Positions 47,615-62,739 of a stretch of DNA of 64,000 nt are shown piece by piece. The DNA comes from an uncultured Phycisphaerales bacterium. Its GTDB lineage: Bacteria; Planctomycetota; Phycisphaerae; Tepidisphaerales; Tepidisphaeraceae. The first letter of the stretch is position 1. Each line of letters opens with the position of its first letter. Both the position numbers and the translations under genes were made by a program. The notes under the pieces are model-generated. The model had not been told where the DNA came from and searched no databases. It saw nothing but the letters and a program-made list of their open reading frames with translations. The DNA lies in assembly GCA_963755915.1 (NCBI GenBank), contig CAVWLP010000002.1:4032001-4096000 (forward strand), given 5' to 3'.

Positions 47615-47632
47615 TTTTCAGCGGCCATTGCC

Positions 47633-48475
47633 ATGAGCATGACTGACGCGCAACTTGCACTCAAAAGTATTTCCTACCGCCGGCGCATTCTCGAAATCAT
47701 CCGCCACGCCGGCGCCGGGCACACCGGCGGAAGCCTTTCCTGCATCGATATCCTCAGCGTTTTGTACAACCGCATCTTGCGGGTTTCTCCGCAAACATTT
47801 GGCGACGCCCAGCGCGACCGTTATATCCAGAGCAAGGGGCATTCGGTTGAGGCGTTGTATGTCGTGCTCGCCGACCGCGGATTTTTCCCCCGCGAGCAGC
47901 TCGATACGCTCTGCGCGTATCAATCGCACTTCGTCGGCCATCCGACACGCAAGGTTCCCGGGATCGAGCAAAACACCGGCGCACTCGGGCACGGTTTGCC
48001 CATCGCCGTCGGAACGGCCATCGCCGGGAAGATGGATCACGCCGCGTTCCGGGTTTTCGTCCTTCTCGGAGATGGCGAGCTTGCCGAAGGATCGAATTGG
48101 GAAGCGGCGATGGCCGCCGCCCATTATCGGCTCGATAACCTCATCGCGATCGTCGATCACAACACGCTGCAAATCACCGGCCGCACGCGCGATGTCTGCT
48201 CCAACGAACCGCTTGACGAAAAGTTCCGCGCTTTCGGGTGGACCGTAAAAACCGTCGATGGCCATTCGATTTCGCGGCTCACCGAGGCTCTGACCAGCAC
48301 GGATTCCACCGGCAAACCCCTGGTGGTGATCGCCAACACCATCAAAGGCAAGGGCGTGAGCTTCATGGAAGACGTGGCGAAATGGCACCACGGCGTGCCC
48401 ACAGATGCGGAGTTTGCGGCGGCGATCAAGGAATTGGACGCCGCCCTTGCCGCCGCGGAAAAGGCGGTCCAATGA
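47633..48475 (+). CDS. Transketolase, N-terminal (ThDP-binding) subunit
   Basis: GHTGGSLS, SKGH, GHP, TGALGHG, GDGELAEGSNWEA, TIKGKG, WHH. Confidence 0.95.
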   Translation: MSMTDAQLALKSISYRRRILEIIRHAGAGHTGGSLSCIDILSVLYNRILRVSPQTFGDAQRDRYIQSKGHSVEALYVVLADRGFFPREQLDTLCAYQSHFVGHPTRKVPGIEQNTGALGHGLPIAVGTAIAGKMDHAAFRVFVLLGDGELAEGSNWEAAMAAAHYRLDNLIAIVDHNTLQITGRTRDVCSNEPLDEKFRAFGWTVKTVDGHSISRLTEALTSTDSTGKPLVVIANTIKGKGVSFMEDVAKWHHGVPTDAEFAAAIKELDAALAAAEKAVQ

Positions 48476-49470
48476 GCGCTGCGGCCCCGTCCATGTTTAG
48501 CCCAGCCGCTGCCGCAATGGCTGCGCGATTGGGCCTGAAACTCGGCCGCCCCAATCTCGAGGAGTTCGGCGCCACGCTCCTCAAACTCGCAACCGAAAAC
48601 CCCCAGATCGTCGCCGTCACCAGCGACTCCCGCGGTTCGGGCAAGCTCGTCAATTTCGGCTCGGCGCTTCCGACCCAGTTGGTCGAACTTGGTATCGCTG
48701 AGCAGAACCTCGTCGCTGTTTCGGCCGGCCTCTCGTCGGTCGGCAAGATCGTTTTTGCCGTCTCCCCCGCTTGTTTTCTCACCGCCCGGGCCCTCGAACA
48801 AATAAAAAATGACGTCGCCTATTCAAACAACCCGGTGAAGTTGATCGGCATCAGCGCCGGCGTCAGCTACGGCGCGCTGGGATCGACCCACCATTCGCTG
48901 CACGATCTGGCCGCCCTGCGGGCCATCAACAACATCGAAATCGTCGTGCCCGCGGATAATTTCGAAGCCCGTGAGTCGATCAAAATTGCCGCCGCACATC
49001 CGCGCCCGATGTTTATCCGCTTCGGCAAGGCGTCGCTCTACGATTTAACTCAGACCCAGCAGGGCTTTGAAATCGGCAAAGCCCGGCTCATTCGGGACGG
49101 ATCCGACATCGCATTCATCGCCACCGGCGAAACCGTCATTCACGCGCTTCTGGCCGCGGGCGCTTTGGCGGATGAGGGGATCTCCTGCCGGGTCGTGAGC
49201 ATGCACACGATCAAACCGCTGGATCACCAGGCGATTCTCGACGCGGCAAACCGTTGCGCGGCCATCATCACCGTCGAAGAGCACAGCGTTTTCGGCGGCC
49301 TCGGCGAAGCCTGCGCGGCCGTGCTCCTTCAGGCGAACGCTGCCCCGCGGTTCAAAATCGTCGGAATTCCCGACGAATACACCGTCACCGGCAGCCAGGC
49401 CGACATCTTCCGCCACTATGGCATCGCCATGGAAGCATTGGCAACGCTGGCACGAAATCTCCTGCGCTGA
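48472..49470 (+). CDS. Transketolase, C-terminal subunit
   Basis: GIAEQNLV, RALEQIKND, GSTHHS, TVEEHSVFGGLG. ATGA overlap with the N-terminal subunit. Confidence 0.95.
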   Translation: MSAAAPSMFSPAAAAMAARLGLKLGRPNLEEFGATLLKLATENPQIVAVTSDSRGSGKLVNFGSALPTQLVELGIAEQNLVAVSAGLSSVGKIVFAVSPACFLTARALEQIKNDVAYSNNPVKLIGISAGVSYGALGSTHHSLHDLAALRAINNIEIVVPADNFEARESIKIAAAHPRPMFIRFGKASLYDLTQTQQGFEIGKARLIRDGSDIAFIATGETVIHALLAAGALADEGISCRVVSMHTIKPLDHQAILDAANRCAAIITVEEHSVFGGLGEACAAVLLQANAAPRFKIVGIPDEYTVTGSQADIFRHYGIAMEALATLARNLLR

Positions 49471-49479
49471 GGCAGCAAA

Positions 49480-50968
49480 ATGGCTCATCTACTGGCCATC
49501 GATCAAAGCACTTCCGCCACCAAGGCAATCCTTTACGACCCCCTCGGCAACCTGGTCGACAAGGCGTCGATCGAACACCGCCAGTTCTACCCCCAGCCGG
49601 GCTTCGTTGAGCATGACGCGGGCGAAATATGGAACAACACGCTGGCGGCGATCAATTCACTCTCCGAACGCGCCGGCGACAGTCTCCGAGATGCCTCCTG
49701 CCTGAGCATCACCAATCAGAGAGAAACCTTTGTGGTTTTCGATCGCGCCACCGGCCAGCCGTTGCATCCGGCTATCGTCTGGCAATGCCGGCGCAGTGAT
49801 GAAATCTGTGAAGAACTTCGAGGCGCCGACACCGGCGAAATTGTCCCCCGCAAAACCGGGCTCAGGATCAATTCTTACTTCTCCGCCCCCAAGCTCGCCT
49901 GGCTGATCCGCAACCGGCCCGATATCGCCGCGAAGCTGGCCGCCGGCGAAGCGCTTGTCGGGACCATCGACGCTTACCTGATTTACCGTCTGACCGCCGG
50001 CAAAACCTTCGCCACCGATCACACCAATGCAAGTCGTACCCTGCTCTATGATATTCTGGGCCTGCGCTGGGATGAAGAATTATGCGCGATCTTCGGCGTC
50101 CCGATGCGCTGCCTGCCGGAAGTGCGCGACAGCTCCGCGGAATTTGGCACAACCGACGCGCGCGGAATCCTGGGCAAACCCATTCCAATCTGCGGCGTGA
50201 TTGGCGACTCTCAGGCGTCGCTGGTGGCGCACCAATGTTTGCAGCAGGGAATGGCAAAGGTCACGCTCGGCAGCGGCGCATCGGTTCTTTTGAACATCGG
50301 ATCTTCGCATCGCGCCGCTGGCGAGGGCGCGGTTTCCACCATCGCCTGGACCCATCACGGCAAGCCGGTTTACTGCTTCGAGGGAATCATCAATTATGCC
50401 GCCGGAACGATCGCTTGGCTGAAGGACCAGTTGGGATTAATTCAAACCGCCGAGGAAACCGAAACCCTTGCGCAGCAAGTGCCCGACAACGCGGGCGTAT
50501 ATTTCATTCCCGCCTTCGCTGGGCTTGGTGCGCCCTATTGGGCCCCGCGGGTGCGGGCGGCGATTGTCGGGTTGACGTCGCATTCCAATCGCAATCACGT
50601 CGTGCGGGCGGCGGTCGAATCGATCGCCTACCAGGTCTGCGATGTCCTGGAAATGATGCAAACCCGTTCCGGCGTAAACCTGCGGACCTTGCGCGCCGAT
50701 GGCGGCGCCAGCCGCAATAAGTTCCTGATGCAGTTCATGGCCGATATCAGCGGGCTCGAGGTGGTCGCCGCGCCGATTGCCGAGTGCTCGCCCCTCGGAG
50801 CCGCGCTTCTGCGCACTCGGGATGGGACTGTTCGCCTCGATGGACGACATCTCGCGCCTCCCATTTGCTGGGCTGAAATATCAACCCTTGATGCCCAAAG
50901 GTCGGGCCGAGGCCTTTCGGCTCGGCTGGAAAAACGCCGTGAAACAGCAATTGGCTGGAATCGAATGA
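49480..50968 (+). CDS. FGGY/glycerol-kinase family carbohydrate kinase (apulose kinase candidate); frameshift near 50810
   Basis: IDQSTSATK, ITNQRET, IVWQCRR, TDHTNASRT, GDSQA, GLGAPYW, DGGAS. The true C-terminus (LGMGLF...GWKNAV) is in ORF 50777-50968. Confidence 0.9.
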
Positions 50969-53643
50969 ATTCCCATTTCCGTCCCCCTGCGCTTCGCTGT
51001 GAATACCGCGCGGAGCCTCTGGGCATCGACACGCCGGCTCCACGATTCAGTTGGCAAATCGATGCCGATTCGCATCGGCTGGGCGGGAAACAGATCGCGT
51101 ATCAAATTCTCGTCGCCTCATCGCGCGATCTTCTCGACGCAAATGTCGGCGATCTTTGGAACCCCGGCAAAGTCTGCTCGTCCCAATCGTTCAGCATCCC
51201 CTATCAGGGCCGCACCCTCTCTTCCGCCGAGCAGGCTTGGTGGAAGGTTCAAATCTGGGACGAAACCGCCGCGTCGGAATGGAGCGACCCAGCCGCCTTC
51301 ACAATGGGATTGCTAAATGCATCCGATTGGATCGCGAATTGGATCACAACCGATCCGCAAACATACGTCTCGAAATCCCTCCCCATATTTCGCAGAGAAT
51401 TCACCCTGGAAGCGATCCCGGCCCGGGCCCTGATATTCGTCTGCGGCCTGGGGCATTTCAAATTACGCATCAACGGACAAACCGCCGGCGAAAACGTCCT
51501 CGATCCCGGCTGGACGAATTATTCGAAGACGTGCTTGTACGTCACCCACGACGTAACTTCGCTCCTTCGCACCGGTTCCAATGTGCTGGGGATGATGCTC
51601 GGCAACGGGATGTTTAACGTCGTGGGGGGGCGCTACAAGAAATTCAAGGGCTCGTTCGGACCGCCAAAATTCATCCTGCAGATGCTCTTGACCTTTCCGG
51701 ACGGCACCACGCGGACAATCATCAGCGATGAATCATGGAAGTGTTCCCCAGGCCCCATCACCTTCAGTTGCATCTACGGCGGAGAGGACTCCGACGCCCG
51801 CGACAACCCAACCGGCTGGGATATGCCGAATTGTGCCGGCAACGGATGGTCGCAGGCCGCGCTCACATCCGGTCCGGGCGGCACGTTGCGATCACAAACG
51901 GCCCCTCCAGTAAGAGTCATGAAAACATTTCGTCCCGTCCGGATTTCCAGTCCCGCGGCCGATCTGGCCGTTTACGACCTGGGCCAAAACTTTTCCGGCT
52001 GGCCGCGGATTAAGACCACGGGCCAACCCGGATCGAAAATCGAACTAATCCCCGGCGAACTGCTCGACGCCTCCGGCCGCGTTTCCCAGCGCTCCTGCGG
52101 AAGCCCCATATCATTCTCTTGCACCAGCGCCGGCAAACCCCAATCGTGGCATCCCGAATTCAGCTTTACCGGCTTCAGATTTATCGAAGCCCGGGGCGAC
52201 GTGGCCGCGATCGAAGAACTCGAAGGCCAGTTCGTTCATTCATTCGCCGCCGCCGCGGGATCGTTTAGTTGTTCCAACCCGCTTTTCAACCAGATCCATG
52301 AACTGATTAACGCCGCCATTGCTAGCAACATGCAAAGCGTGCTCACCGATTGCCCTCACCGCGAAAAACTCGGCTGGCTGGAACAATCGCACCTGATGGG
52401 GCCTGCCATCATGTTCAACTACGACGTGCCCCTGCTTTACGCCAAGATATGCGCCGATATGCGCGAGGCGCAGCAGGGCGATGGGTGCGTCCCGACGATT
52501 GCCCCGGAATACACCAAATTCACCGGTCAATACGCCGATTTCAGCAATTCCCCCGAATGGGGCAGCGCCGCGGTCATCAATCCCTGGCTCACTTTTCAGC
52601 AATATGGAGACGTTCAAATTCTCCGTGACAATTTCGACATGATGCGGCGGTACGTGCAATATCTTGATCGCCGCGCACAGGACGGCATCATCGACTTTGG
52701 TCTGGGCGATTGGTACGACATCGGCCCGGGCGATCCGGGCTATTCCAAGCTCACCACCAAAGCCCTGACCGGAACCGCCTTCTACTTTTTGGATCTTCAA
52801 ATACTCGCGAAGGTGGCCCTCCTGCTGGGCGATGCCACCGAGTCCCAATTATGCGCCGAGCGCGCAAATGAGGTTCGCCGCGCGTTTCAGGCCCGGTTCT
52901 TCGACCCCCGGGCCGGCCATTACGATCGAAACAGCCAGACCGCCAACGCAATGGCCCTCGCCCTTGGTTTGGCCGACCCGGGCGATGCGCCGCGCGTTCT
53001 CGATAGCCTGATCGCCGACATTCGCGCACGCGAGAATCACATCACGGCAGGGGACATCGGATTTCGATTCGTCCTGGACGCGTTAAGCGAAGCGAATCGA
53101 TCCGACGTAATCTTCGACATCCTCTCGCGCACCGATTCCCCCAGCTACGGCGCCCAACTCCGCGCCGGCGCAACATCCCTCACCGAAGCCTGGGACGCCA
53201 ATCCCGCGAAATCGCAGAATCATTTGATGCTCGGCCATGCCGAACAATGGTTCTATCAGTCCCTGGCCGGGATTCGTCTGGACATGTCCCTGAGCGGCGC
53301 CGATCGGCTGGTAATTCGTCCGGCGATCGTCGGCGATATTTCCTGGGCCGAGGCGGATTACGACTCCATCCTCGGGCGCATCCGCTGCCGCTGGGAGCGG
53401 CGAGATCACGGTCTCGATTTGTCGGTCGAAATTCCATTCAACAGCAGCGCCACGATCTATCTGCCCGCACCGTACGGAACACGGATATTTGAATCCGGCC
53501 GTCCAATCGCCGATATGTCCAATGTTAAACTCAAAAATCTGGACCGCGAGGTCGCTATAATAATCGCTGACGCCGGCAAATATTCGTTCGAGTCGCGATG
53601 GAATGCCCACCACAGAAACATCCCCACGAACCACGCCGACTAA
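50965..53643 (+). CDS. GH78 alpha-L-rhamnosidase
   Basis: LRCEY..EPLGID.PAPRFSW, YDLGQNFSGW, TDCPHREKLGWLE, GLGDW, GATSLTEAW, SQNH.MLG. ATG 50965 overlaps the kinase stop (ATGA). Confidence 0.92.
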   Translation: MNSHFRPPALRCEYRAEPLGIDTPAPRFSWQIDADSHRLGGKQIAYQILVASSRDLLDANVGDLWNPGKVCSSQSFSIPYQGRTLSSAEQAWWKVQIWDETAASEWSDPAAFTMGLLNASDWIANWITTDPQTYVSKSLPIFRREFTLEAIPARALIFVCGLGHFKLRINGQTAGENVLDPGWTNYSKTCLYVTHDVTSLLRTGSNVLGMMLGNGMFNVVGGRYKKFKGSFGPPKFILQMLLTFPDGTTRTIISDESWKCSPGPITFSCIYGGEDSDARDNPTGWDMPNCAGNGWSQAALTSGPGGTLRSQTAPPVRVMKTFRPVRISSPAADLAVYDLGQNFSGWPRIKTTGQPGSKIELIPGELLDASGRVSQRSCGSPISFSCTSAGKPQSWHPEFSFTGFRFIEARGDVAAIEELEGQFVHSFAAAAGSFSCSNPLFNQIHELINAAIASNMQSVLTDCPHREKLGWLEQSHLMGPAIMFNYDVPLLYAKICADMREAQQGDGCVPTIAPEYTKFTGQYADFSNSPEWGSAAVINPWLTFQQYGDVQILRDNFDMMRRYVQYLDRRAQDGIIDFGLGDWYDIGPGDPGYSKLTTKALTGTAFYFLDLQILAKVALLLGDATESQLCAERANEVRRAFQARFFDPRAGHYDRNSQTANAMALALGLADPGDAPRVLDSLIADIRARENHITAGDIGFRFVLDALSEANRSDVIFDILSRTDSPSYGAQLRAGATSLTEAWDANPAKSQNHLMLGHAEQWFYQSLAGIRLDMSLSGADRLVIRPAIVGDISWAEADYDSILGRIRCRWERRDHGLDLSVEIPFNSSATIYLPAPYGTRIFESGRPIADMSNVKLKNLDREVAIIIADAGKYSFESRWNAHHRNIPTNHAD

Positions 53644-54722
53644 CCCGCCAACCCCTGAAGATCCCATTCTTCCAAAACGGACCTGACAGTGACCGGCTGA
53701 CGCCGTTGAAGGCTCCGGTCCATCGCCGTCATGAGCGCGACAGTCACAATCCCCTCCCGCAAATCGGGCGCAGGCGTCTGGTTGCTTTCGATGCATCGCG
53801 CGAAATATTCAATGTAATTCTGATACTCCCCCGCATGATGACTGCGCCCGCCGAAGCGGAAATAATAGGGCGCCCGCGTTTCAATATCATATTGCACGCA
53901 TCCTTCCCCTTTGAAATGCGTGCTGTAGCGCAGATCGTAATAATCCGCCTGGCTCGCCCCATTTTCCCCCCGAAGAATGCAGGTCATGTGGCTGTCGCGC
54001 ATATGGTTCACCGGCGGCGAGCTGTAACACCCGCTCACCCGCGCAATGTTTCCAGCCCCCGTCGTCATCACGAAGTGCATCGAATCCGCATCGCGAAGGC
54101 CGCCCACTCGTCCGTTTTCCGTCAGCATGCCATACCCCATCACCTCCGTCACATCCGGAAAATACCAGCGGACCAGGTCGACAGGATGACTCAATCCCCC
54201 GAATAGCCATTTCAGCCCACCCGTCTTCGCCCAGTCCTTCTGAAGGAACCACCGGTTGTCGGCGTGATAGTGTGCCTCGACGGAAAAAAGTTTGCCGTGC
54301 TTTCCAGCATCGAAATCGGCGCGCTGCCAGATCATCGGCTCGAAGAACCGCGAGCTCTGCCCCACGAACACCCGCCGCCCGGTTCTCTGGGCAACCTCCA
54401 GCAGCGACTTCGCCTGCTCCAGGTTATCCAGCAGCGGCTTCGTGCATATCGCGTGTTTCCCCGCCTCCAAAATCTGCTTGATGTGGCTCGCATGCAGCGG
54501 ATCGGGCGTATACACCCCGATCACGTCAATCTTCGAATCCCCCAGCATCTCCTCAAATTTCGTCGTATAGCGATCGAGCCGGAACTCGGCCGCGCGCTCC
54601 TTGCAAAGCGCCTCGTTCAAATCGCAAATCTGGGCCAGCTCCCAAAGCTGGCTGTTCAACGCCGCCGAGATAATGCTTCGGCCTTCTCCCAGTCCCAGCA
54701 CGCCAAGTCTCAGTTTCGTCAT
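53640..54722 (-). CDS. Gfo/Idh/MocA-family NAD(P)-dependent oxidoreductase
   Basis: LGVLGLGEG, YTPDPLH, GKHAICTKP, SHPVD. Confidence 0.9.
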   Translation of the reverse strand: MTKLRLGVLGLGEGRSIISAALNSQLWELAQICDLNEALCKERAAEFRLDRYTTKFEEMLGDSKIDVIGVYTPDPLHASHIKQILEAGKHAICTKPLLDNLEQAKSLLEVAQRTGRRVFVGQSSRFFEPMIWQRADFDAGKHGKLFSVEAHYHADNRWFLQKDWAKTGGLKWLFGGLSHPVDLVRWYFPDVTEVMGYGMLTENGRVGGLRDADSMHFVMTTGAGNIARVSGCYSSPPVNHMRDSHMTCILRGENGASQADYYDLRYSTHFKGEGCVQYDIETRAPYYFRFGGRSHHAGEYQNYIEYFARCIESNQTPAPDLREGIVTVALMTAMDRSLQRRQPVTVRSVLEEWDLQGLAG

Positions 54723-54742
54723 GTTAAAAATACCCGGCTAAA

Positions 54743-57252
54743 TCAACGGTTCGATAATACACCATAAAGTTCAGCTTCGCGCAGATTCGCTCGCGCGCCG
54801 GGCGAAATTGACGTGAACGTGATCCGCACATACCGGGCCACCGCTCCCGGATCGAAGATATCGTTGCGCACCGCATCTACCCGCTCCGTCCGCGTTCGAT
54901 CTATCCCGAGCGCCCATTGCGCCCCATCCATCGACAACTCCATCCGATACCGATAGTTTCCCGCCGCGTTGAAGGTAAGCCTGCAACTCGAAAGCTGGTA
55001 AAACCCCTCCAGATCGATCCTGAACCACGCTGGAAGGCCGGCGTCCCGCGCCTCCCACCAGGTCTGCGCATTTGCATCGTTCGCGAACCGTGCAGGCTGC
55101 CCTTCGGCTTCCGAGCTTGCCGCGCTCGGCCGGTCGCGGGCAACGTTCACTGCATTCTTCATCGCCTCGATCGAAGCCTGCGACGGCTCCGCCCGTTTGT
55201 ACGGTCGAGCCGCCGCTGGCAACGTTTCACCCTCCACCCATCGCGGCTCCCCCTCGGTTGTGATGACGAGCCACGCATCCCCCAGCCCCGGCGAAGTCGC
55301 GCGAATCCGGCTCTGTCCCCCGTGATAGGAGCGAAACGCAATCCCCGCCTCTCCTTCGGCAATAGCGATATCGCCATCGGCTTCGAAGGTGATGCTTCTC
55401 CCGGTCGGAAATTCTCCCGGTCCCGATTCGATCGTCAACGTGATCGCCGGCGAATTGCTGATCCGATTTCCCCCCGCATCCAGCACACAAACCACGATTT
55501 GGCAATCGTCGGTTGCATCCGTGCCCGCGATTGTGGTCTTGTCCGCCGTTATCTCCAATTTGGCCGCGGTTCCCGGCGCGGGCCACGGCGGGGGGGCAAT
55601 TCCGCGCAGTTCATTGCGATACCAGTACCAGCTCCGTTTCGGAATACGATTGTGCTGCACGATTCCCTTCAGACCCTGCCGCCCCGCGATGCTGCCATAA
55701 TCAAACCCGCACCAGATCGCCTCTCCTCCGCGCCACGCAAACCGCTCCGATTGCAACTCGCCAAAGAAGGGTTCATACGCATCGACCGGCTTGCTGATCG
55801 CGCCATATTCGCTGACCATGTTGGCGATGCCCGGGTCCATAAAAAGCCGGGCCCCATCGCCGTTATATCCAGCGACGTCCCCCAGCTTGTCCACCTGCCC
55901 GCGCTGAGCCCCGCCGACAGCCGCGGGGCGGGTCGGGTCGAGCTCATGGCTCAGCTCCACCATCCGCGCGATCAGCAACCTGGCCCTTTCAAGGTCATAC
56001 GTGAAAAACGCCTCGTTCGTCATGCTCCAGATCACGATCGACGGATGGTTCCGATTGAAGCGGATCATTTCCGCAAGCATCCGCTCACAACTCTCCTCAA
56101 ACGCTTCCCGATCCGCCGCATTGATCGGATACGCGCTCGCATTCCAATACCCCTCAGGCCCGAATCCGCCTTTCCCCCAAAAACATGCTTCCGACCAGAA
56201 GATCATCCCCAGCCGGTCGCACGCATCGGCAAACGCCGGGTTATGCGGATAATGCGCACTGCGCACGAAATTGAACCCGGCCTCTTTGATCAGTTTCGCA
56301 TCCCGAAAACACGCCCCCTGCGTCGTCGCGATGCCCCATCCCGCCTGATCCTGATGCGCGTTGACGCCGCGCAGGTAAAGATGTTCGCCATTGAGAAAAA
56401 AGCCCCGATCGCTCGTCCATTCAAACCAGCGGAAACCAATCGCGGTTTCGAAGTCGTCCAAAAGCCCGTCGTCATGCAGTTCCACTCGCACGCTGTAAAG
56501 CGCCGGATGATTTGGATGCCACAACTCCACCCCGGCAATGGCCGGCAAAGCCTGCTCGATTTCAACCGTCGATCCCGCCCCGATCTCGTGCGACGTATCG
56601 CTCGAAGCCACAACGCGCCCCCGCGGATCGCAAACCCGCGTCGCCAGCCGAAAGCTGCTCGCGTGATCCAAGCGATTTGAAACCTCCGTTGTCACCATCA
56701 CCGTCGCCGATTCCCGCGACACCGACGGCGTGGTCACGCCCACCCCATGCCACGTAATATGCAGCGGCTCCTTCACCACAAGATAAACATCCCGATAGAT
56801 CCCCCCCGAAAAATGTGCTCGCCCGCCCGCGGAACCAGCCGCGGATTCCAGCTATTGTCCACCTTAACGGCCAGCAAATTCGCCCCGGCGCGAACCGCAT
56901 CAGTAATCTCAATGCAAAACCCCGTATATCCCCCTTCATGCCGCCCAACCAATGTGCCGTTAAGAAAGACATCGGCGACCTGAAAGACCCCCTCAAATTC
57001 GAGAAACAATCGCTTTGTCGCCCAATCATCCGGAATGTCGATTCGCTTTCGATACCAACCAACGCCGACATAAAAATCGGCCGCGCGAAAATAAGGAAGA
57101 TCAAATGTGTGCGGCAGTCCCACCCGCGTCCAATTGGTGTCGTCGAACTTCCAGTCCTGCGCACCGCCTGCGTCGCCAGGAAAGAATTGCCACTCCCGAT
57201 TGAGGTTCAGCCGCCTGCGGCCCGATTGCCGTGATGACACCAATCCTCCCAT
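54743..57252 (-). CDS. GH2 glycoside hydrolase with C-terminal F5/8-type (CBM32-like) domain; frameshift near 56800
   Basis: LPHTF, FLEFEGV, HEGGYTGF, RGVNAHQD, RSAHYP, RNHPSIVIWSMTNE, SEYG, then NVARDRPSAASS...AND...ARYVRI. Confidence 0.88.
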
Positions 57253-57254
57253 TT

Positions 57255-57926
57255 TCAGCTCGCCGCGACGATCTGCGCCAGATGTTCAACGGCAAGCCGG
57301 GGGCTGGAGAGAATCGGCACAGGTTTCTCCTCCGCCTTGAGCCCGTCGGCAGTGCGCGCCATCGAAGCCTGCGCCAGCACGATGACATCCACCCTCGGCG
57401 ACAAATCTCGCAGCGCCTGCCCAATCAGCGCATCGTGCCTCGCCCCGTCTCCGGACATCACCGCTTCAAACGCTCCGCTCACCACTTGCGAGATGACCTC
57501 AACCGCCTTCCCATCCTTCCGCCGGCAGCTTCGGATGAGAGCAACGGTCGGCTCCAACGTCGAAGGCAGCGTCGCCACCACCCCCACCCGATGCCCGGTA
57601 TTCACCGCCTTTTGCGCCATCGCTTCATCGACTCGCAAAACGGTCGCCGCGCTAAGCGCCCGCGAGGCCTCCACTGCCCGCCCCATCGAAGAACACGTCA
57701 CCATGATAAACTCCGCCCCCGCCTCCTCGGCCGAAAGCACGTGCCCAACCAGCCGCCGCGCCGTCGCCGGCGGCGTCTTTCCCTCCCGAATGATGTCGCA
57801 CAGCAGGCTTTCATCCACCATGTTGAAGATCGTCGCTCCAGGCAACAGCTCGTTCGCCAACGCCTTGAAAATTGGAATCATCGACGGCGACGTATGAACA
57901 AACGCGATCGTTTTCGACATAATCAT
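57255..57926 (-). CDS. Asp/Glu/hydantoin racemase-fold protein
   Basis: AFVHT, VTCSS, RVDEAMA, ATLPST, VIVLAQASMA, LSSP. Only the first catalytic Cys (TCSS) is evident. Confidence 0.8.
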   Translation of the reverse strand: MIMSKTIAFVHTSPSMIPIFKALANELLPGATIFNMVDESLLCDIIREGKTPPATARRLVGHVLSAEEAGAEFIMVTCSSMGRAVEASRALSAATVLRVDEAMAQKAVNTGHRVGVVATLPSTLEPTVALIRSCRRKDGKAVEVISQVVSGAFEAVMSGDGARHDALIGQALRDLSPRVDVIVLAQASMARTADGLKAEEKPVPILSSPRLAVEHLAQIVAAS

Positions 57927-59244
57927 TCCCGGTGAAATTCCCGCCCCTGCTCCACAAGCCCAAAGAATTCCTCATTGCCGATCTGCCCCCCCTTGAAGGC
58001 GATTTCCAGTCCGTCGATGGATGGATTCGTAGAACTCGCCTTGCACAGCGGCACGCCGCGCGTCAGCTCGCCGATCATTTCAACCGCTTCAATCCCCAGT
58101 GCCCGCGCGACTTGACTCGATGTATCTCCGCCCGCCACCACGGCCCGGCGCATACCCGTCTCACCCAAAGCCCTCGCGAGAATTCTCCCCAGCGCCGCGC
58201 CAATTCCTGATGTGTCATTTGCCCACAGGTCCTTCGTCCCGCTGCCGCCCGTGTGAAGGCAAACGCTCCTGCCCGCGCGGATCGCAGCGCACACCTCAGA
58301 GCAGGTATCGCCCACATCCTGCCCATCAAAAACAATCTCCGCGAAACCATTGCCCACCGCCCAGCGAATCTGCGCCCCGGTAACCGGAGAGCAGCTCCCC
58401 GCCACAGCGATAATCGGCGTTGCCGGCCCCGGCTGCTCGAAATGCGCCGTCCGGGCCGCGCTTCCCGTTTTCATCCAGTGCGCGCACAGAGCAGACTCCA
58501 CCCCGGATGATCCTGCGACAAACAGGGGGCCATCGCTCCTCGCGTGCTCCGCCATGATTGCCCCGATCGCTTCCAGATGGCGATCATAAAGAACATCCAT
58601 CAGTACAATTCGCGCGCCCTCTCCCAGCAAAGACTCCAACCGCCGATGCAGATCCTCCGACTGCATTTCCATATCGATCGCGTCCACCAATCCGATCCGC
58701 TTCGACGTTTGTTTCCCCAGATGCACGCGCAGATCCGCTTCGTCCATCGGCGTAATCGGATGCCGGCTCATCGACGGATGCCGGTCCAGCCGATAGATTT
58801 CCGGTTCCCCTCCGCACCGCGCAAAAAGATTCCCGAATGCGCAGTATCGCCCCAGCGCCGGTGCGCCCACCACCACCGGCACAAACCGAGACCCAAACAC
58901 TTCCATCCCAACGTCAATCACCCGCCCAATACTGCCGATCGCGGGCGATGAATCGAACGTCGAGCAGGTTTTGTAATGGACAATCGGCGCGCCCGAATCG
59001 CGCATCGCCAGAAAATCGGCTCGATCTGCTTGGCGATCTGATCCGTCGGCAGCGACCGCGTCAATCCCGCCACGCCCAGCGCCTGCAATCCCTTATACCG
59101 TTCCAATTGCGCCGCCGTCGGAACATTCGTGAACAGCACCGTGCGGATTCCATGCCGAGCCAGCGATTCCATCGCATCCGTCGACCCGGTGAAATCGTCG
59201 CCGACAAACGCCATCAGCAGGTTGCTTTGCTTCGCGCCGTTCAC
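57923..59244 (-). CDS. Four-carbon acid sugar kinase family protein (OiaK-like); frameshift near 59010
   Basis: GDDFTGSTD, HYKTCSTFDSSP..GSIG, DRHPSMSRHP.TPMDEADL, GSSG, GGDTS, KGGQIG. The GTG start overlaps the RLP stop. Confidence 0.88.
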
Positions 59245-60504
59245 GTGGATTGTTTCCCAAACCTGGCGATGCTTTGCCCCAGTTCCCGGTGATCGCGCGC
59301 ATAATCTTCCAGCGGTCTGCCGGCAACCGCCGCTTCCCACGCCTGCCGCAGCGCCGCCACTCCCGACCCCGGCCCACCCGGATGCGCCATGATTCCTCCC
59401 CCCGCCAGGTAAAGAAGATCAGCCGTATGCGTGCGCCGCCACGTTTCCGGTGCTTGAAGCCCCGTCTGTCCGGATGAGACGACCGGAAGAACCGCGCGCC
59501 CTCCGGACATCGGCTCCAGGCAAGCCGCGATCGATCTCACCACCGAATCATCGCTCTCCCAGAACTTGTTGGCGATCCCGTTCACATGAATCTGATCCAC
59601 CCCGGCCAATCTCCAGATTTTCTGATATGCGGTGAATTCTATCCCCAGCCACGGATGCCGGTTCAGCATTCCCCATCCGTTGCGGTGTCCGTGAACCGCC
59701 AGCGCGCCCAGATCGCAAATCTTTTTCACGCCGGCCAGGCCCACGCTGTTCAGCGAGACCATCACCGCCGTCCCTCCCGACGTGCGGACCTTCTCATAAT
59801 GCCGCAGCATCGCGTCGATTTCATCGCTGATGTTGAACGCATACATCACCTTCTTTCCCGTGCGATCGGCATGCGCGTTCAGTACCTTCATCACCGCATC
59901 GACGCGCTGGTCGAATGGCGAGTGAGGCGGATTGGCCATCAGCTCATCATCTTTAATGAAATCGATCTTCGCTTCCGCAAGTAGAGCGACCAAATTTGCC
60001 GTCTCCTCCGGCGACAGCCCGATGCTCGGTTTTATAATTGTCCCAATCAGCGGCCTGCCGCGCACACCACTCAATTCACGCGTACCCGCGATTCCAAATC
60101 GCGGCCCCGGGAACGCCTTGACGTATGTCTCCGGAAACTCCAGATCGACCAGCTTCACCCCCGAAAATTCTCGCAGCTCATACAAATTCCCCTGCACCGT
60201 CGAAACCAGCGTGGGTAAATTGTGCCCGAAGTTTTCGATCGCCCAGGAAACCACGATCTCGGCGCGCCGGTACTGCCCCGAAAATCCCTCTCGGGGCTTT
60301 TTAATTGGCAAGCTCGGCTCCGAAACGCCCGGCAACTCGCTGATCTTCTCCACCCGCGCCAAATCGCCGCCGGATTTCGTCCGTCTCCCCGGGAACTTCC
60401 ACAAATGTTCCCGATGATTGTTCCCCCGCCAAAACCGCGGCCGCGCGGTTGACTTCCAGGGGGGTCTCGATCAAATAGGTGGCGCTGATTCGCTCTGCCG
60501 GCAT
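59241..60504 (-). CDS. RuBisCO-like protein (form IV; OiaX/OiaT-like); frameshift near 60370
   Basis: TYLIET...AGEQSSGTF, GTIIKPSIGL, DFIKDDE, HGHRNG, SSGQ, GGGIMAHP. No rbcS or prk nearby. Confidence 0.9.
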
Positions 60505-60547: not shown

Positions 60548-62739
60548 ATGATAGACCGCCTCGATGAATTCAACGTCGTTTGGGATTCGCCCAGCGGGGA
60601 TGCTTCAGGCTCAATGCCTCTCGGCAACGGCGACATCGCGCTGAATGTATGGGTTGAAGCGGGGGGCGACTTGCTGCTCCTGACCGCCAAATCCGATGCC
60701 TGGGACGAAAATTCGATCAATCTCAAACTCGGCCGCATCCGCGTAAAACTCTCCTCAAATCCTTTCCAGCCCGGCCAGAAATTTCGCCAGACACTGCGCC
60801 TCAGAACCGCCGAAATTGAAATCGATGCCGGAACAGTCCATCTGCGAATCTGGGTCGATGCCAATTCACCCGTCATTCACATTGAAGCCCACGGAGACAC
60901 GCCGTTCGAAATCGAAGCCTCGCTGGAAATGTGGCGTACCTCACCCGCGCCATCCAGACCCAAACCAGCGACATGTTCAAGAACCTGGCCGCAAAAAACA
61001 GCGATCCCTATCCCACGATCGTCTGGCCCGACCAACTCCTCGAAGGTCCCGCCAATTCCGTGACCTGGTGCCACCACAACGAGAAACGCGATCCCGATCC
61101 CTACGAAACTAATCTGCGTCTTCAGGGTCTCGGTCAAATGCTGGATCATCTGCCCCATCCGCTGCTCGGCCGGGTTTTCGGGGCGTCGATGTTCGGCGGG
61201 AATTTCAAACGCGTCGATCCGCAAACACTTCGCTCGAATTCCGCGAGCACCAGTCATCATCTGAACATATTCGCCCTCAGCCAGTATCCCTCGACCCCAT
61301 CGCTATGGCTCGACGAAATGCATTGCAGGATTGCCAATGTCGGCGAATCTTCTTCCTCGCGCCAGCGCACGAGCTCCATTGGGAAAAGTTCTGGAATTCA
61401 AGCTGGATCTATATCACCGCCAGTTCCCCCGAAGCAAAGGCCGATGCCTTTCAGATCACGCGGGCGTACATCCTCCAACGATTCATGAATGCCGCCGCCG
61501 GCGCGGGCCCGATCAAGCACAACGGCTCCCTCTTCACCGTTGGCACTCCGGACGATCCCGATTTCCGGCGGTGGGGGGGTCCCGGGTTCTGGTTCCAAAA
61601 CCAGCGACTGATCTATTGGCCCATGCTCGCCGCCGGCGATTTCCATCTCATGCGCCCGTGGCTTGAAATGTATTTCCAATCCCTCCCCCTTGCCCGTCAC
61701 CGCACCGAAACCTATTTCCACCATGGCGGCGCCCACTATCCCGAAACCATCACCTTCTGGGCGCCGAAGTCAGCGCTCACTATGGCTGGACTCCATTCGA
61801 ACAGCGGAAAAATCCCGAAGCCGAATCCCCCTATCTCAAATACTACTGGACCGGCGGCCTGGAATTAACGCTCCTCCTGTGCGAATACTGCGCCTATACC
61901 GCCGATCCGCAATTCGCCCGCGACCGTCTCCTCCCCATCGCCGAGGCCGTCATCGAGTTTTTCGATCTTCACTATCCGCGCGACCCCGATGGAAAAATCC
62001 GCTTCGAGCCGGCCCAGGCTTTGGAGACCTGGCACCAGGCGGTCAACCCGCTGCCCGAAATCGCCGGGCTTCGCTATACGCTTGGCCGCCTCCTCGCCCT
62101 CCCCGAAGAATTCATTTCCAAGAGTTTGCGCGATCGATCCGCGCACGTGCTCGCGAGCTTCCCCAGCTCCCCCTCGGCGAAAAAAACGGAAAACGCTTCC
62201 TTTTTCCTGCCCAGCAGTTCGATCGCCTGAAGAACACCGAAAATCCCGAGCTATATTGCGTATTTCCCTATCGATTATTCGGCGTCGGCAAACCCGATCT
62301 CGACCTCGCGCAAAATACCTTCGACGCTCGCCTCCACTGCTCGCACGATTGCTGGTCGCAGGACGACATTCAATTGGCCCTGCTCGGACGCAGCAACCAG
62401 GCCAAAAACTGGCTCGCCAAACGCGCTTCCCCCGCCTCCCACAGCGACAGCCGTTTTCCCGCCTTCTGGAACGCCTTCCACGATTGGCTCCCCGACGTCG
62501 ATCACGGCGGCGTCCTGCAGATGGCGCTCCAGTTAATGATCATGCAGGCCGACGACGGCCTCATCACTCTCCTGCCCGCGTGGCCCCCTGAATGGAACGT
62601 CGATTTCAAGCTCCACGCCCCCGGCCGCACGATTATCGAGGGCTCCGTGCGCGATGGAGAATTCGTCCATCTCCACGTCTCGCCACCCGCCTCCACAGCC
62701 CGAGTGAAAGTTGCGCAAAATCGAAACTCTTTGCCCTGA
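60548..62739 (+). CDS. DUF5703 / GH95-like glycoside hydrolase; about four frameshifts (near 60950, 61350, 61760, 62150)
   Basis: NVVWDSPS..ASGSMPLGNGDIALNVW, YILQRF, IKHNGS, FWFQNQRLIYW, ENPELY.VFP, PDVDHGG, LLPAWP.EWNVDFKLHAP. Confidence 0.8.

What the first reader, a model, noticed from the sequence alone, without database searches (positions are those of the whole stretch)
57255..60504. RuBisCO-like protein + kinase + racemase-fold operon: candidate pathway for aceric acid catabolism
Seen: RLP, OiaK-like kinase and a racemase-fold protein are translationally coupled. No apionate oxidoisomerase (ApnO) is recognisable in the window, while an aceric-acidase-type GH127 is present. Known: in D-apionate catabolism OiaK phosphorylates 3-oxo-isoapionate, HOOC-C(OH)(CH2OH)-CO-CH2OH, and an RLP (OiaX or OiaT) decarboxylates or cleaves the product. 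Inference: aldose-ketose isomerisation of aceric acid (3-C-carboxy-5-deoxy-L-xylose) gives HOOC-C(OH)(CHOH-CH3)-CO-CH2OH, a methyl homologue of 3-oxo-isoapionate. The racemase-fold protein, or the isomerase at 46200, could supply this step in place of ApnO. I know of no described aceric acid pathway.
Basis: inference. Interest (0 to 1): 0.8.

Follow-up and report, generated by a model that had tools for sequence, protein, structure and literature searches.

The report
Candidate aceric acid breakdown operon
A RuBisCO-like enzyme, a sugar-acid kinase and an unusual one-cysteine racemase-fold enzyme form an operon in a soil planctomycete's pectin-degrading locus; it is a good candidate for the unknown pathway that consumes the rare plant sugar aceric acid.

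Summary
The three genes are at the stated coordinates on the minus strand. As deposited, the RLP and the kinase each carry a frameshift. Short-read contigs from soil metagenomes have extra bases exactly at both sites, so these are probably assembly indels.

The operon continues into a GH2 and a Gfo/Idh/MocA gene (53640-60504). It faces a fragmented GH139, the 2-O-methyl-fucosidase of RG-II chain B.

- RLP-kinase-racemase-fold is a conserved cassette in 80 loci from three phyla, usually followed by a BASS carboxylate carrier.
- An aceric-acid-hydrolase-type GH127 is the commonest neighbouring hydrolase: 37 of 80 loci, and directly upstream in 21 of 70 with enough flank.
- This GH127 type is present in 51 of 51 cassette genomes searched.
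- ApnO is absent from this genome and from 47 of 50 cassette genomes.
- A same-family relative whose RLP-kinase pair sits next to ApnO has neither the racemase-fold gene nor the GH127.
- The racemase-fold gene also occurs with a split transketolase, or with an RraA-like aldolase plus an OtnI-like isomerase. Both fit a 2-keto isomer of aceric acid as its product.

Nothing is shown biochemically. Three earlier notes of this scan reached the same reading on other genomes. I found no paper describing the pathway.

The parts
59241..60504 (-). RuBisCO-like protein of the OiaX-related, racemase-linked clade. It is interrupted by a frameshift at 60354/60355.
   Evidence: PF00016 E 1.3e-65. NF042437 OiaX scores 453.6 bits plus 40 for the N-terminal piece, against a cut-off of 700. 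Frame junction at 60355-60359. A short-read contig has 'CG' inserted after 60354. Catalytic K161, K187/D189/E190, H274, H276/R277, K316, S347 and G371-373 (P0002 numbering) are conserved.
57923..59244 (-). DUF1537 acid-sugar kinase, OiaK-related. It is interrupted by a frameshift at 59011/59012.
   Evidence: SBD_N plus NBD_C. NF042436 OiaK scores 334.6 plus 61.8 bits, against a cut-off of 700. Frame junction at 59011-59023. A short-read contig has 'A' inserted after 59011.
57255..57926 (-). One-cysteine Asp/Glu-racemase-fold protein ('RACE'), the proposed aldose-ketose isomerase for aceric acid.
   Evidence: PF01177 scores 74.2 bits. The AF2 model has pLDDT 94.9. Foldseek's best matches are Asp/Glu/hydantoin racemases at TM 0.7-0.79 and at most 21% identity. 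C78 and Q186 are invariant in 64 cassette sequences. They are present in 132 and 131 of 136 diverse representatives.
54743..57252 (-). GH2 glycosidase with a C-terminal F5/8 type C domain, in the same operon (2-nt gap after RACE). It is split by a frameshift near 56800-56824.
   Evidence: Pfam GH2 N, middle and TIM-barrel domains. Frame junction. The order RLP-KIN-RACE-GH2-GFO is conserved in relatives L111 and L115 and in L095.
53640..54722 (-). Gfo/Idh/MocA oxidoreductase, the last gene of the operon. Its role is unknown.
   Evidence: PF01408 and PF02894. 66-71% identical orthologues sit in the same position in L111 and L115. It has no tblastn match to the Gfo/Idh/MocA gene of the Rhizobium apiose cluster.
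60572..62706 (+). GH139-type (DUF5703_N) gene, divergent from the RLP and broken into at least 4 frames.
   Evidence: tblastn with the L111 and L041 homologues gives pieces in several frames. The L041 homologue scores 937.9 bits on PDB 9HYQ. 9HYQ and 9HMB are the GH139 2-O-methyl-fucosidase structures of PMC12282258.
31122..33031 (-). GH127 of the aceric acid hydrolase (BT1003) type, about 25 kb from the operon. It is split by a frameshift.
   Evidence: NF049879 scores 736.8 bits over profile positions 139-656 of 657. The N-terminal piece lies at 33031-32726 in another frame. A generic GH127 scores only 104.9 bits on this model.
46200..50900 (+). Context: an isomerase-like ORF, a split transketolase and a GlpK-like FGGY kinase, convergent on the operon. 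It is probably a separate apiose (transketolase) route.
   Evidence: Pfam and NCBIfam. The same cluster lies next to the cassette in L111, and directly follows GH140 in L110. The assignment to apiose rests on my recollection of Carter 2018 and on the Figure 1 legend of PMC13753588.
40425..41966 (-). Context: GH140-type apiosidase.
   Evidence: PF13204 Apiosidase, DUF5060 and DUF5605.

Best explanation
The operon RLP-kinase-RACE(-GH2-Gfo) is the Tepidisphaeraceae form of a widespread cassette that catabolises L-aceric acid (3-C-carboxy-5-deoxy-L-xylose). Aceric acid is released from rhamnogalacturonan-II side chain B by the GH127 aceric acid hydrolase.

Proposed steps (all chemistry is inferred; only gene identities and associations are shown):
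1. The one-cysteine racemase-fold enzyme shifts a proton between C2 and C1. This converts the aldose into its 2-ketose, HOCH2-CO-C(OH)(COOH)-CHOH-CH3, the methyl homologue of 3-oxo-isoapionate.
2. The DUF1537 kinase phosphorylates the new C1 hydroxymethyl group. OiaK and OtnK do the same to their 3-oxo acids.
3. The RLP uses its intact carbamyl-lysine/Mg site to decarboxylate this beta-keto acid, which resembles the carboxylated RuBisCO intermediate. The product is a 5-deoxy-pentulose 1-phosphate.
4. A FucA/RhaD-type aldolase elsewhere in the genome could split that product into DHAP and acetaldehyde.

Aceric acid already carries its carboxyl group, so no ApnO-type oxidation or rearrangement is needed.

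In most lineages a BASS-family carrier imports the acid. This genome has no BASS homologue, so its importer is unknown.

The two frameshifts in the window are most likely consensus errors of the assembly, so the genes are probably functional.
For: Family placement:
- The nearest characterised families are OiaX and OiaK, but both proteins fall below the equivalog cut-offs. Intact relatives do too: 504 and 435 bits against 700.
- Catalytic residues of the RLP are conserved.

Cassette conservation in 80 RLP-centred loci from Planctomycetota, Verrucomicrobiota and Bacteroidota:
- Kinase in 72, RACE in 68, BASS carrier in 60.
- No dehydrogenase belongs to the core.

Link to aceric acid:
- GH127 is the commonest neighbouring hydrolase (37 of 80). 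For comparison: GH78 22, GH2 21, GH106 20, GH139 19, GH95 8, GH140 5.
- GH127 lies directly upstream and co-directional in 21 of the 70 loci with enough flank.
- In Pedobacter the gap is 2 bp and the GH127 scores 1185.8 bits on NF049879, cut-off 950.
- Chain-B enzymes and a SASA esterase flank the cassette there.
- 51 of 51 cassette genomes hold a GH127 of this type.
- In this window the operon's immediate neighbours are a GH139 and a GH2. BT_0993, a GH2, cleaves Gal-beta-1,2-aceric acid (passage in PMC11739564).

Against an apionate route:
- ApnO was not found in this genome, nor in 47 of 50 cassette genomes.
- It was in 0 of 80 RACE-centred loci.
- G084 carries RLP-kinase with ApnO. It has no RACE in the 15 kb fetched around the RLP and no GH127 of this type in the genome.
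- Both ApnO-linked RLPs fall outside the 82-row cassette group in a quick tree (SH-aLRT 88).

RACE as a supplier of a 2-ketose:
- In 5 loci RACE-BASS follows a split transketolase in place of RLP-kinase. One of these has the GH127 upstream.
- In 3 loci RACE sits among an aldehyde:ferredoxin oxidoreductase, an RraA-like aldolase, a 2-oxo-tetronate-isomerase-like protein (310 bits, cut-off 325) and a DUF1537 kinase.
- All three downstream modules need a 2-keto isomer. The last one fits release of acetaldehyde from a 5-deoxy sugar.

Frameshifts: short-read contigs carry insertions at both sites.
Against: - No biochemical, genetic or expression data exist. No RNA run held the stretch.
- An aldose-ketose isomerase in the Asp/Glu racemase fold has no precedent that I know of. 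Aceric acid has no proton alpha to its carboxylate, which is the usual point of attack in this fold. RACE could instead be an epimerase, or act on another acid.
- In this window the GH127 is about 25 kb away. The cassette is as close to an apiosidase-linked transketolase cluster, and in G092 a GH140 is the RLP's divergent neighbour.
- All RG-II genes co-occur, so genome-level co-occurrence cannot separate aceric acid from apiose, Dha or Kdo.
- In the Phycisphaerae sample, 3 of 8 RLP holders lack the GH127 type. One of these (G210) has RACE, though its genome is 90% complete in 290 contigs.
- In the same sample, 14 of 19 GH127-type holders lack the RLP. B. thetaiotaomicron also did not ring for the RLP family but did for the GH127 family.
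- No aldolase for the proposed product is conserved in the cassette.
- The choice between decarboxylase (OiaX-like) and transcarboxylase/hydrolase (OiaT-like) is open.
- The read evidence for the frame corrections is one contig each, at depths 5.8 and 2.4.
Confidence: 0.6

Rival explanations
1. The cassette is a divergent D-apiose/D-apionate route. The substrate of the kinase and RLP is still 3-oxo-isoapionate or a close apiose-derived acid, made without ApnO by other enzymes such as the Gfo/Idh/MocA oxidoreductase plus RACE.
For: - The best family hits are OiaX and OiaK.
- Apiosidase GH140 is in the window and lies next to the RLP in G092.
- A Gfo/Idh/MocA gene ends the operon here and in relatives. 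A Gfo/Idh/MocA gene also sits in the Rhizobium apiose cluster.
Against: - Both proteins score below the equivalog cut-offs.
- ApnO was not found in 47 of 50 cassette genomes, nor in this one.
- Making 3-oxo-isoapionate needs an NAD-dependent oxidation with a carbon shift (PMC13753588, sections read). A cofactor-less racemase fold is unlikely to do that.
- The Gfo gene is present in only 8 of 80 loci and is unrelated to the Rhizobium one by tblastn.
- GH140 is near the RLP in only 5 of 80 loci, against 37 for GH127.
- A separate transketolase cluster next to GH140 can account for apiose.
Confidence: 0.12
2. The cassette handles some other carboxylated sugar or hydroxy acid taken up by the BASS carrier. 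This could be another RG-II product or a soil acid. Its link to GH127 would then reflect only general clustering of RG-II genes.
For: - RG-II loci mix many functions.
- About half of the loci (43 of 80) show no GH127 within 10 kb.
- RACE also occurs beside tdh-kbl (L121, L122) and in other contexts.
- The RACE family is large: 807 representative clusters at E <= 1e-30.
Against: - GH127 is the only hydrolase that sits directly upstream, co-directional and repeatedly (21 of 70).
- It is of the aceric-acid type, at 830-1209 bits for full-length copies against about 105 for a generic GH127.
- 51 of 51 genomes hold it.
- The three downstream modules found with RACE all fit a C6 branched 5-deoxy keto-acid.
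Confidence: 0.2
3. In this particular genome the RLP and kinase are true pseudogenes and the operon is decaying.
For: - The deposited sequence has frameshifts in the RLP, the kinase, GH2, GH139 and GH127.
- No BASS carrier is present in the genome.
Against: - Short-read contigs, 99% or more alike, carry the frame-restoring insertions at both sites.
- The frameshifts are spread over unrelated neighbouring genes. The genome is 3 contigs with 81% marker completeness. This is the pattern of indel-prone long-read consensus.
- The protein is 93% identical to an intact relative, with no stops within either frame.
- Other Tepidisphaeraceae also lack BASS next to an intact cassette.
Confidence: 0.07

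Closest known systems
Oxidative D-apionate route 1: ApnO, OiaK, OiaX. Source: Carter et al. 2018, Nat Chem Biol, which is not held here. I know it from recall, from PMC13753588 (sections read) and from a passage in PMC6302742.
   Same: - A DUF1537 kinase paired with an RLP, translationally coupled.
- The best NCBIfam hits are OiaK and OiaX.
- The proposed chemistry is the same: phosphorylate the CH2OH next to a ketone, then decarboxylate a 2-substituted 3-oxo acid on the RuBisCO-type metal site.
   Different: - Scores fall below both equivalog cut-offs.
- There is no ApnO, lactonase or apiose dehydrogenase in the cassette.
- A racemase-fold gene and a BASS carrier take their place.
- The linked hydrolase is the aceric acid hydrolase GH127, not an apiose transporter or apiosidase.
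- The proposed substrate has CH(OH)CH3 where 3-oxo-isoapionate has CH2OH.
3-oxo-tetronate pathway: OtnI, OtnK, OtnC. Source: Zhang et al. 2016, PNAS, which is not held here. It is summarised in PMC13753588.
   Same: - A DUF1537 kinase phosphorylates HOOC-C(OH)(R)-CO-CH2OH, and decarboxylation follows.
- The variant RACE context includes an OtnI-like isomerase (310 bits, cut-off 325).
   Different: - The decarboxylase here is an RLP, not a class II aldolase-fold OtnC.
- The kinase scores 164 bits on the OtnK model, against a cut-off of 350.
Asp/Glu/hydantoin racemase superfamily, PF01177. My recollection is that arylmalonate decarboxylase is its known one-cysteine member.
   Same: The fold (TM 0.7-0.79) and the first catalytic cysteine motif (TCSS) are shared.
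   Different: - The second catalytic cysteine is an invariant glutamine, in the motif LAQASM.
- Identity to any solved member is at most 21%.
- The genomic partners are sugar-acid enzymes, not amino-acid metabolism.
Bacteroides thetaiotaomicron RG-II utilisation loci: BT1003 (GH127), BT0993 (GH2), BT0984 (GH139), BT1012 (GH140). Sources: the enzyme table in PMC13501991, and passages in PMC11739564 and PMC12282258.
   Same: The window holds the same set of RG-II hydrolase families: GH127, GH95, GH140, GH78, GH2, GH139 and a BT_1020-like protein.
   Different: B. thetaiotaomicron did not ring for the RLP family in the control search. The catabolic cassette is an addition found in soil and freshwater phyla.

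Membership tests
[quoted passage not shown] | Score at or above the curated equivalog cut-off of 700 bits. | tested here: not met
   The window scores 453.6 bits plus 40 for the N-terminal piece. The intact Pedobacter orthologue scores 504.3.
[quoted passage not shown] | RuBisCO-type catalytic residues: the KPxxG lysine, KDDE, H/HR, the loop-6 lysine, and the S/G and GGG phosphate site. | tested here: met
   K161, K187, D189, E190, H274, H276, R277, K316, S347 and G371-373 are conserved in 68 cassette RLPs and in 4 outgroup RLPs.
[quoted passage not shown] | Pathway context with ApnO, which supplies 3-oxo-isoapionate. | tested here: not met
   ApnO was not found in G000. It was found in 3 of 50 cassette genomes and in 0 of 80 RACE-centred loci.
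[quoted passage not shown] | Decarboxylation of 3-oxo-isoapionate-4-phosphate. | not testable with these tools
   This needs an enzyme assay.
OiaK, 3-oxo-isoapionate kinase (NF042436) | Score at or above the cut-off of 700 bits. | tested here: not met
   The window scores 334.6 plus 61.8 bits. The Pedobacter orthologue scores 435.3.
DUF1537 four-carbon acid sugar kinase family | SBD_N plus NBD_C domain architecture. | tested here: met
   PF07005 and PF17042 are both present, over two frames.
Asp/Glu/hydantoin racemase (PF01177) | Pfam gathering score and fold. | tested here: met
   74.2 bits against 31. Foldseek TM 0.7-0.79 to racemases.
Asp/Glu/hydantoin racemase (PF01177) | Two catalytic cysteines for two-base racemisation. 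| tested here: not met
   Only C78 is present. The second position is Q186, invariant in 64 of 64 sequences and present in 131 of 136 representatives.
Aceric acid hydrolase GH127 (NF049879) | Score at or above the cut-off of 950 bits. | tested here: inconclusive
   The window copy scores 736.8 bits on 79% of the profile because of a frameshift. Full-length planctomycete and verrucomicrobial copies score 832-964, Bacteroidota copies 1123-1209, and a generic GH127 scores 104.9.
Bona fide RuBisCO (forms I-III) | Score over the form III or large-subunit model cut-offs. | tested here: not met
   TIGR03326 scores 221.6 against 497. PRK04208 scores 211.2 against 438.

The most novel reading that the evidence does not exclude
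The one-cysteine racemase-fold protein is a new kind of aldose-ketose isomerase, dedicated to the branched sugar acid aceric acid. Bacteria attach at least three interchangeable back-ends to its product:
- a kinase plus a RuBisCO-like decarboxylase;
- a branched-ketose transketolase;
- a retro-aldolase feeding the 3-oxo-tetronate pathway.

On this reading the RLP acts on a five-carbon 2-carboxy-3-keto phosphate. Among the RLP substrates I know of, that would be the nearest mimic of RuBisCO's own carboxylated intermediate.
Probability: 0.4. Interest if true: 0.85.

Novelty: new variant of a known kind. Interest (0 to 1): 0.72.

Why it matters
Aceric acid occurs only in rhamnogalacturonan-II, a pectin domain present in all land plants. 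The enzyme that releases it is known. I found no report of how any organism consumes it:
- 'aceric acid' with 'catabolism': 8 papers, seen as a search listing.
- 'aceric', RuBisCO-like or DUF1537 terms: 3 papers, none relevant.
- 'aceric acid' since 2019: 61 papers, 40 listed, none on its breakdown.

The cassette gives three small soluble proteins and a carrier that can be tested directly. It is present in culturable strains such as Pedobacter heparinus, Dyadobacter jiangsuensis and Fontivita pretiosa.

If the reading holds, three things follow:
- a gap in the carbon budget of pectin turnover in soil would be closed;
- a new reaction would be added to the RuBisCO-like protein family;
- a first function would be assigned to a racemase-fold subfamily of at least 807 sequence clusters.

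Tried and rejected
Literature:
- Carter 2018 (DOI and PMC6435334) and Zhang 2016 (PMC4961189) are not held. What I say about OiaX, OiaT, OiaC and the transketolase route rests on recall and on PMC13753588.
- Supplements were not consulted.

ApnO search:
- I guessed that NCBIfam accession NF042435 was ApnO. It is QuiC.
- I recalled ApnO as a Gfo/Idh/MocA enzyme. That was wrong: it is KARI-like.
- The two best PF03807 hits in the genome are ProC and a 3-hydroxyisobutyrate-dehydrogenase-like protein, not ApnO.

Searches that found nothing:
- RACE has no close solved relative by sequence (best E 0.12).
- The ORF at 46200 has no Pfam hit, no PDB hit, and only a weak SftI-like NCBIfam hit.
- There is no BASS homologue in the genome. 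An empty answer with one query is weak evidence.
- No RNA holder was listed for the stretch, so nothing can be said on expression.
- The scan's own notes for this genome were empty.

Limits of what I did run:
- Parts of the stretch without contig cover in runs X2-X4 say nothing.
- The careful tree did not finish, so only the quick tree is reported. Its long branches (L100, L109, L110) are unreliable.
- Eight positions differ between cassette RLPs and the two ApnO-linked RLPs: E55, S89, S104, Q107, V210, Y239, H286 and L388. With two sequences on one side this is only a lead.
- The tdh-kbl genes beside RACE in L121 and L122 may be coincidence.

A statement I withdrew: an early note said there was only one DUF1537 kinase in the genome. 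A second lies at 12821-13939, and the OiaK model missed it.

Not run: apnL or apsD searches, a complex prediction, and an Atlas search.


Full report
WHAT IS THERE

On the minus strand of 53640-60504 lie five tightly packed genes.
- A RuBisCO-like protein (RLP): PF00016, E 1.3e-65.
- A DUF1537 acid-sugar kinase: SBD_N plus NBD_C.
- A 223-residue Asp/Glu-racemase-fold protein, here called RACE: PF01177, 74.2 bits.
- A GH2 glycosidase.
- A Gfo/Idh/MocA oxidoreductase (all).

The junctions are tight. RLP to kinase reads GTGA, and kinase to RACE reads ATGA. RACE to GH2 is a 2-nt gap and GH2 to Gfo a 20-nt gap.

The finding's coordinates cover the first three genes.

On NCBIfam the RLP's best model is OiaX, at 453.6 bits plus 40 for an N-terminal piece. 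The kinase's best model is OiaK, at 334.6 plus 61.8 bits. Both fall below the equivalog cut-off of 700.

FRAMESHIFTS

The RLP and the kinase are each split between two frames.
- A 93%-identical relative aligns to 60507-60355 in one frame and to 60359-59244 in another.
- Kinase relatives change frame between 59023 and 59011.
- The GH2 changes frame near 56800-56824.
- The upstream gene and the GH127 are also fragmented.

The genome is 6.63 Mb in 3 contigs, but only 81% complete by marker genes.

Four soil metagenome runs of one study hold the stretch. In their short-read contigs, X1 has 'CG' inserted after 60354 (depth 5.8). X4 has 'A' inserted after 59011 (depth 2.4). No other indel is listed. 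Read, each insertion restores the frame seen in relatives.

I therefore take the frameshifts to be consensus errors. One contig per site at low depth is not proof. The best-holding run may also be the sample from which the genome was assembled.

SURROUNDINGS

The window is a rhamnogalacturonan-II (RG-II) degradation locus. It holds:
- GH127 of the aceric acid hydrolase type: NF049879, 736.8 bits on 79% of the profile;
- GH95, a BT_1020-like protein, a GH140 apiosidase, GH78 and several GH2.

The gene divergent from the RLP (60572-62706) is a GH139 homologue. Its Pedobacter counterpart scores 937.9 bits on PDB 9HYQ. That entry is one of the GH139 2-O-methyl-fucosidase structures of PMC12282258 (passage seen).

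GH139 and GH127 act on side chain B of RG-II. So does the GH2 BT_0993, which cleaves Gal-beta-1,2-aceric acid (passage in PMC11739564; enzyme table in PMC13501991).

Convergent on the operon lies a cluster of an isomerase-like ORF (46200), a split transketolase and a GlpK-like kinase.

THE ORGANISM AND THE FAMILY

The closest RLPs (93-74% identity, intact, 414-435 aa) come from Tepidisphaeraceae metagenome genomes and from Fontivita pretiosa.

A scan of species-representative genomes found 545 relatives, of which the best 80 loci were kept. They come from Planctomycetota, Verrucomicrobiota and Bacteroidota, including Pedobacter, Mucilaginibacter and Dyadobacter.

I clustered all ORFs of these loci.
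- The core: RLP in 80 loci, kinase in 72, RACE in 68.
- A 435-residue protein in 60 loci, absent from the window. It is a bile-acid:sodium-symporter (BASS) family carrier, whose best NCBIfam hit is the pantoate carrier PanS.
- The canonical gene order is RLP, kinase, RACE, BASS.
- No dehydrogenase belongs to this core.
- Many of the loci that miss a member are short contigs.

LINK TO ACERIC ACID

GH127 is the most frequent neighbouring hydrolase, in 37 of 80 loci. The others are GH78 in 22, GH2 in 21, GH106 in 20, GH139 in 19, GH95 in 8 and GH140 in 5.

GH127 lies directly upstream and co-directional (gap under 300 bp) in 21 of the 70 loci that have at least 2.1 kb of upstream flank.

In Pedobacter ginsengiterrae the gap is 2 bp. 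There the GH127 scores 1185.8 bits on the aceric acid hydrolase model, whose cut-off is 950. The cassette sits between GH106 and GH127 on one side, and a SASA-type esterase and GH139 on the other.

Of ten further GH127 genes scored singly:
- three pass the cut-off;
- five full-length copies from Verrucomicrobiota and Planctomycetota score 875-924;
- one partial ORF scores 357;
- a second, generic GH127 scores 104.9.

All 51 of 51 cassette genomes searched, this one included, hold a GH127 of this type at E <= 1e-150. Of these, 28 are over the cut-off.

APNO

I took an ApnO reference from a Rhizobium plasmid, where it follows a PGAP-named oiaX and a kinase. It scores 437 bits on PDB 5T57, which a preprint names as ApnO.
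- It has no match in this genome: best E 0.54.
- It matches in 3 of 50 cassette genomes. No RLP or kinase lies within the 3.4-3.8 kb fetched around each of those matches.
- It matches in 0 of 80 RACE-centred loci.
- The other 29 of the 79 handles I had submitted were not searched.

A CLASS-LEVEL SAMPLE

The sample is 201 Phycisphaerae genomes, G000 included.
- The RLP is in 8.
- The aceric-type GH127 is in 19.
- Both are in 5, all of this family.
- Three RLP holders lack the GH127.
  - G084 has RLP-kinase with ApnO (51% identity) about 1.3 kb beyond the kinase, and no RACE in the 15 kb fetched.
  - G114 has RLP-kinase only.
  - G210 (90% complete, 290 contigs) has RLP-kinase-RACE at a contig end.
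- Fourteen GH127 holders lack the RLP.

So the hydrolase does not imply the cassette. G084 shows ApnO and RACE as alternatives beside related RLP-kinase pairs.

In a quick tree the 82 cassette-locus RLPs form one group (SH-aLRT 88, not starred). The two ApnO-linked RLPs lie outside it. Rows on long branches are unreliable.

THE RACEMASE-FOLD PROTEIN

In 64 cassette sequences the first racemase cysteine is invariant (motif TCSS, C78). The second cysteine is replaced by an invariant glutamine (motif LAQASM, Q186). H11, D38, D100, H164 and D165 are also invariant.

A profile search finds 807 representative clusters at E <= 1e-30. Among 136 near-full-length representatives, C78 is kept in 132 and Q186 in 131.

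The AlphaFold model is confident, at pLDDT 94.9. It matches Asp/Glu/hydantoin racemases at TM 0.7-0.79 and at most 21% identity. By sequence no solved relative is close.

A single thiol base suits a suprafacial 1,2-proton shift. This is an inference. I know of no isomerase in this fold.

RACE-CENTRED LOCI

A metagenome scan with the RACE alignment gave 80 loci.
- The kinase is in 44 of 59 with at least 1 kb upstream.
- The RLP is in 32 of 44 with at least 2.4 kb upstream.
- BASS is in 43 of 51 with at least 1 kb downstream.

Two other contexts recur.
- In L148, L154, L162, L190 and L195 a split transketolase directly precedes RACE-BASS. In L195 this follows an aceric-type GH127 and an MFS carrier.
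- In L124, L127 and L139 the order is aldehyde:ferredoxin oxidoreductase, an RraA-like aldolase, RACE, a protein scoring 310 bits on 2-oxo-tetronate isomerase (cut-off 325), and a DUF1537 kinase. A GH88-like ORF precedes the aldolase in L124 and L127.

HOW IT MOST LIKELY WORKS (INFERENCE)

Aldose-ketose isomerisation of aceric acid gives HOCH2-CO-C(OH)(COOH)-CHOH-CH3. Each back-end found with RACE needs exactly this isomer.
- The kinase needs the new primary alcohol, and the RLP needs a beta-keto acid.
- A transketolase needs a ketose donor. It would leave 3-hydroxy-2-oxobutanoate.
- A retro-aldolase needs a beta-hydroxy ketone. It would give acetaldehyde, a substrate for the ferredoxin oxidoreductase, plus 3-oxo-tetronate, the known entry to the OtnI/OtnK pathway.

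In the form present here the RLP would decarboxylate the phosphorylated keto-acid to a 5-deoxy-pentulose 1-phosphate. An L-rhamnulose- or L-fuculose-phosphate-type aldolase could split that to DHAP and acetaldehyde. No such aldolase is part of the cassette.

Whether the RLP decarboxylates or cleaves hydrolytically is open.

The roles of the GH2 and the Gfo oxidoreductase in the Tepidisphaeraceae form are not established. The order RLP-kinase-RACE-GH2-Gfo is conserved in L111 and L115 and in L095. The importer in this genome is also unknown.

COMPARISON AND NOVELTY

The design is that of the OiaK/OiaX branch of apionate catabolism and of the OtnK pathway. The membership tests for OiaX and OiaK fail on score and on ApnO context. 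RACE fails the two-cysteine test of racemases.

I found no paper on aceric acid catabolism (listings and abstracts only).

Three earlier notes of this scan (e1-4326366, e1-2136745, e1-3998281) reached the same reading on other genomes. I saw them after forming mine. They are not independent evidence.

New here are:
- the Tepidisphaeraceae variant without BASS;
- the read evidence on the frameshifts;
- the whole-genome ApnO and GH127 counts;
- the G084 counter-example;
- the alternative RACE back-ends.

VERDICT

Confidence in the aceric acid reading is 0.6.

Noticed in passing
window 1-64000; G000 contigs C1-C3: The plus-strand GC skew falls almost linearly from +0.46 (2-4 kb) to -0.24 (62-64 kb). 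It is carried by third codon positions and does not follow gene orientation (coding-strand position-3 skew from -0.76 to +0.73).

Genome-wide, 126 of 661 10-kb windows have |skew| > 0.2. Contig C2 shows a sawtooth: 13 sharp upward jumps (> 0.3) against 1 sharp downward jump.

Same-family relatives show |skew| <= 0.09 at the homologous loci. One other Phycisphaerae MAG (L050) shows -0.22 to -0.42.

The pattern resembles the skew 'N-domains' that mark multiple replication origins in eukaryotes. I have no explanation for it.
   Followed up: partly
window 12821-15929 (-): A second DUF1537 kinase (12821-13939) sits with a PdxA-family dehydrogenase (13936-15174) and a DHDPS-family aldolase or lyase (14961-15929).

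This could be a route from the RG-II sugar acid Dha: aldol cleavage to pyruvate plus a C4 uronate, then the tetronate kinase and PdxA2 path. That reading is inference only.

The OiaK-model genome search missed this kinase.
   Followed up: no
window 46200-50900 (+); L110, L111: An isomerase-like ORF with no Pfam or PDB match, a split transketolase and a GlpK-like kinase form a conserved cluster. In G210 it directly follows the GH140 apiosidase.

It is probably the transketolase route for D-apiose, with an isomerase of a family that appears undescribed.
   Followed up: partly
window 49480-53643 (+): One 1387-residue ORF joins a GlpK-like FGGY kinase (residues 5-444) to a complete GH78 rhamnosidase (residues 504-1335).

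In relative L111 the kinase matches only query residues 1-438 (ending at 4766), and the Gfo gene begins about 210 nt later on the other strand, so no GH78 follows it there. The fusion here may be an artefact of an indel that removed the stop codon.
   Followed up: no
L124, L127, L139 (metagenome loci): RACE sits in an operon with an aldehyde:ferredoxin oxidoreductase, an RraA-like aldolase, an OtnI-like isomerase and a DUF1537 kinase, and in L124 and L127 also a GH88-like ORF.

This may be an anaerobic variant of the same pathway.
   Followed up: partly
L121, L122 (metagenome loci): Bona fide tdh (584.7 bits) and kbl (659.3 bits) genes lie directly upstream of RACE.

This could be coincidence. 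It could also be a link to the C4 product (3-hydroxy-2-oxobutanoate or threonine) expected from the transketolase variant.
   Followed up: no
window 60572-62706, 54743-57252, 31122-33031: Frameshifts occur about once per 1-2 kb across unrelated genes: GH139, GH2, GH127, the RLP and the kinase.

Gene calls throughout this genome will be fragmented, and its 81% completeness figure is probably an underestimate.
   Followed up: partly
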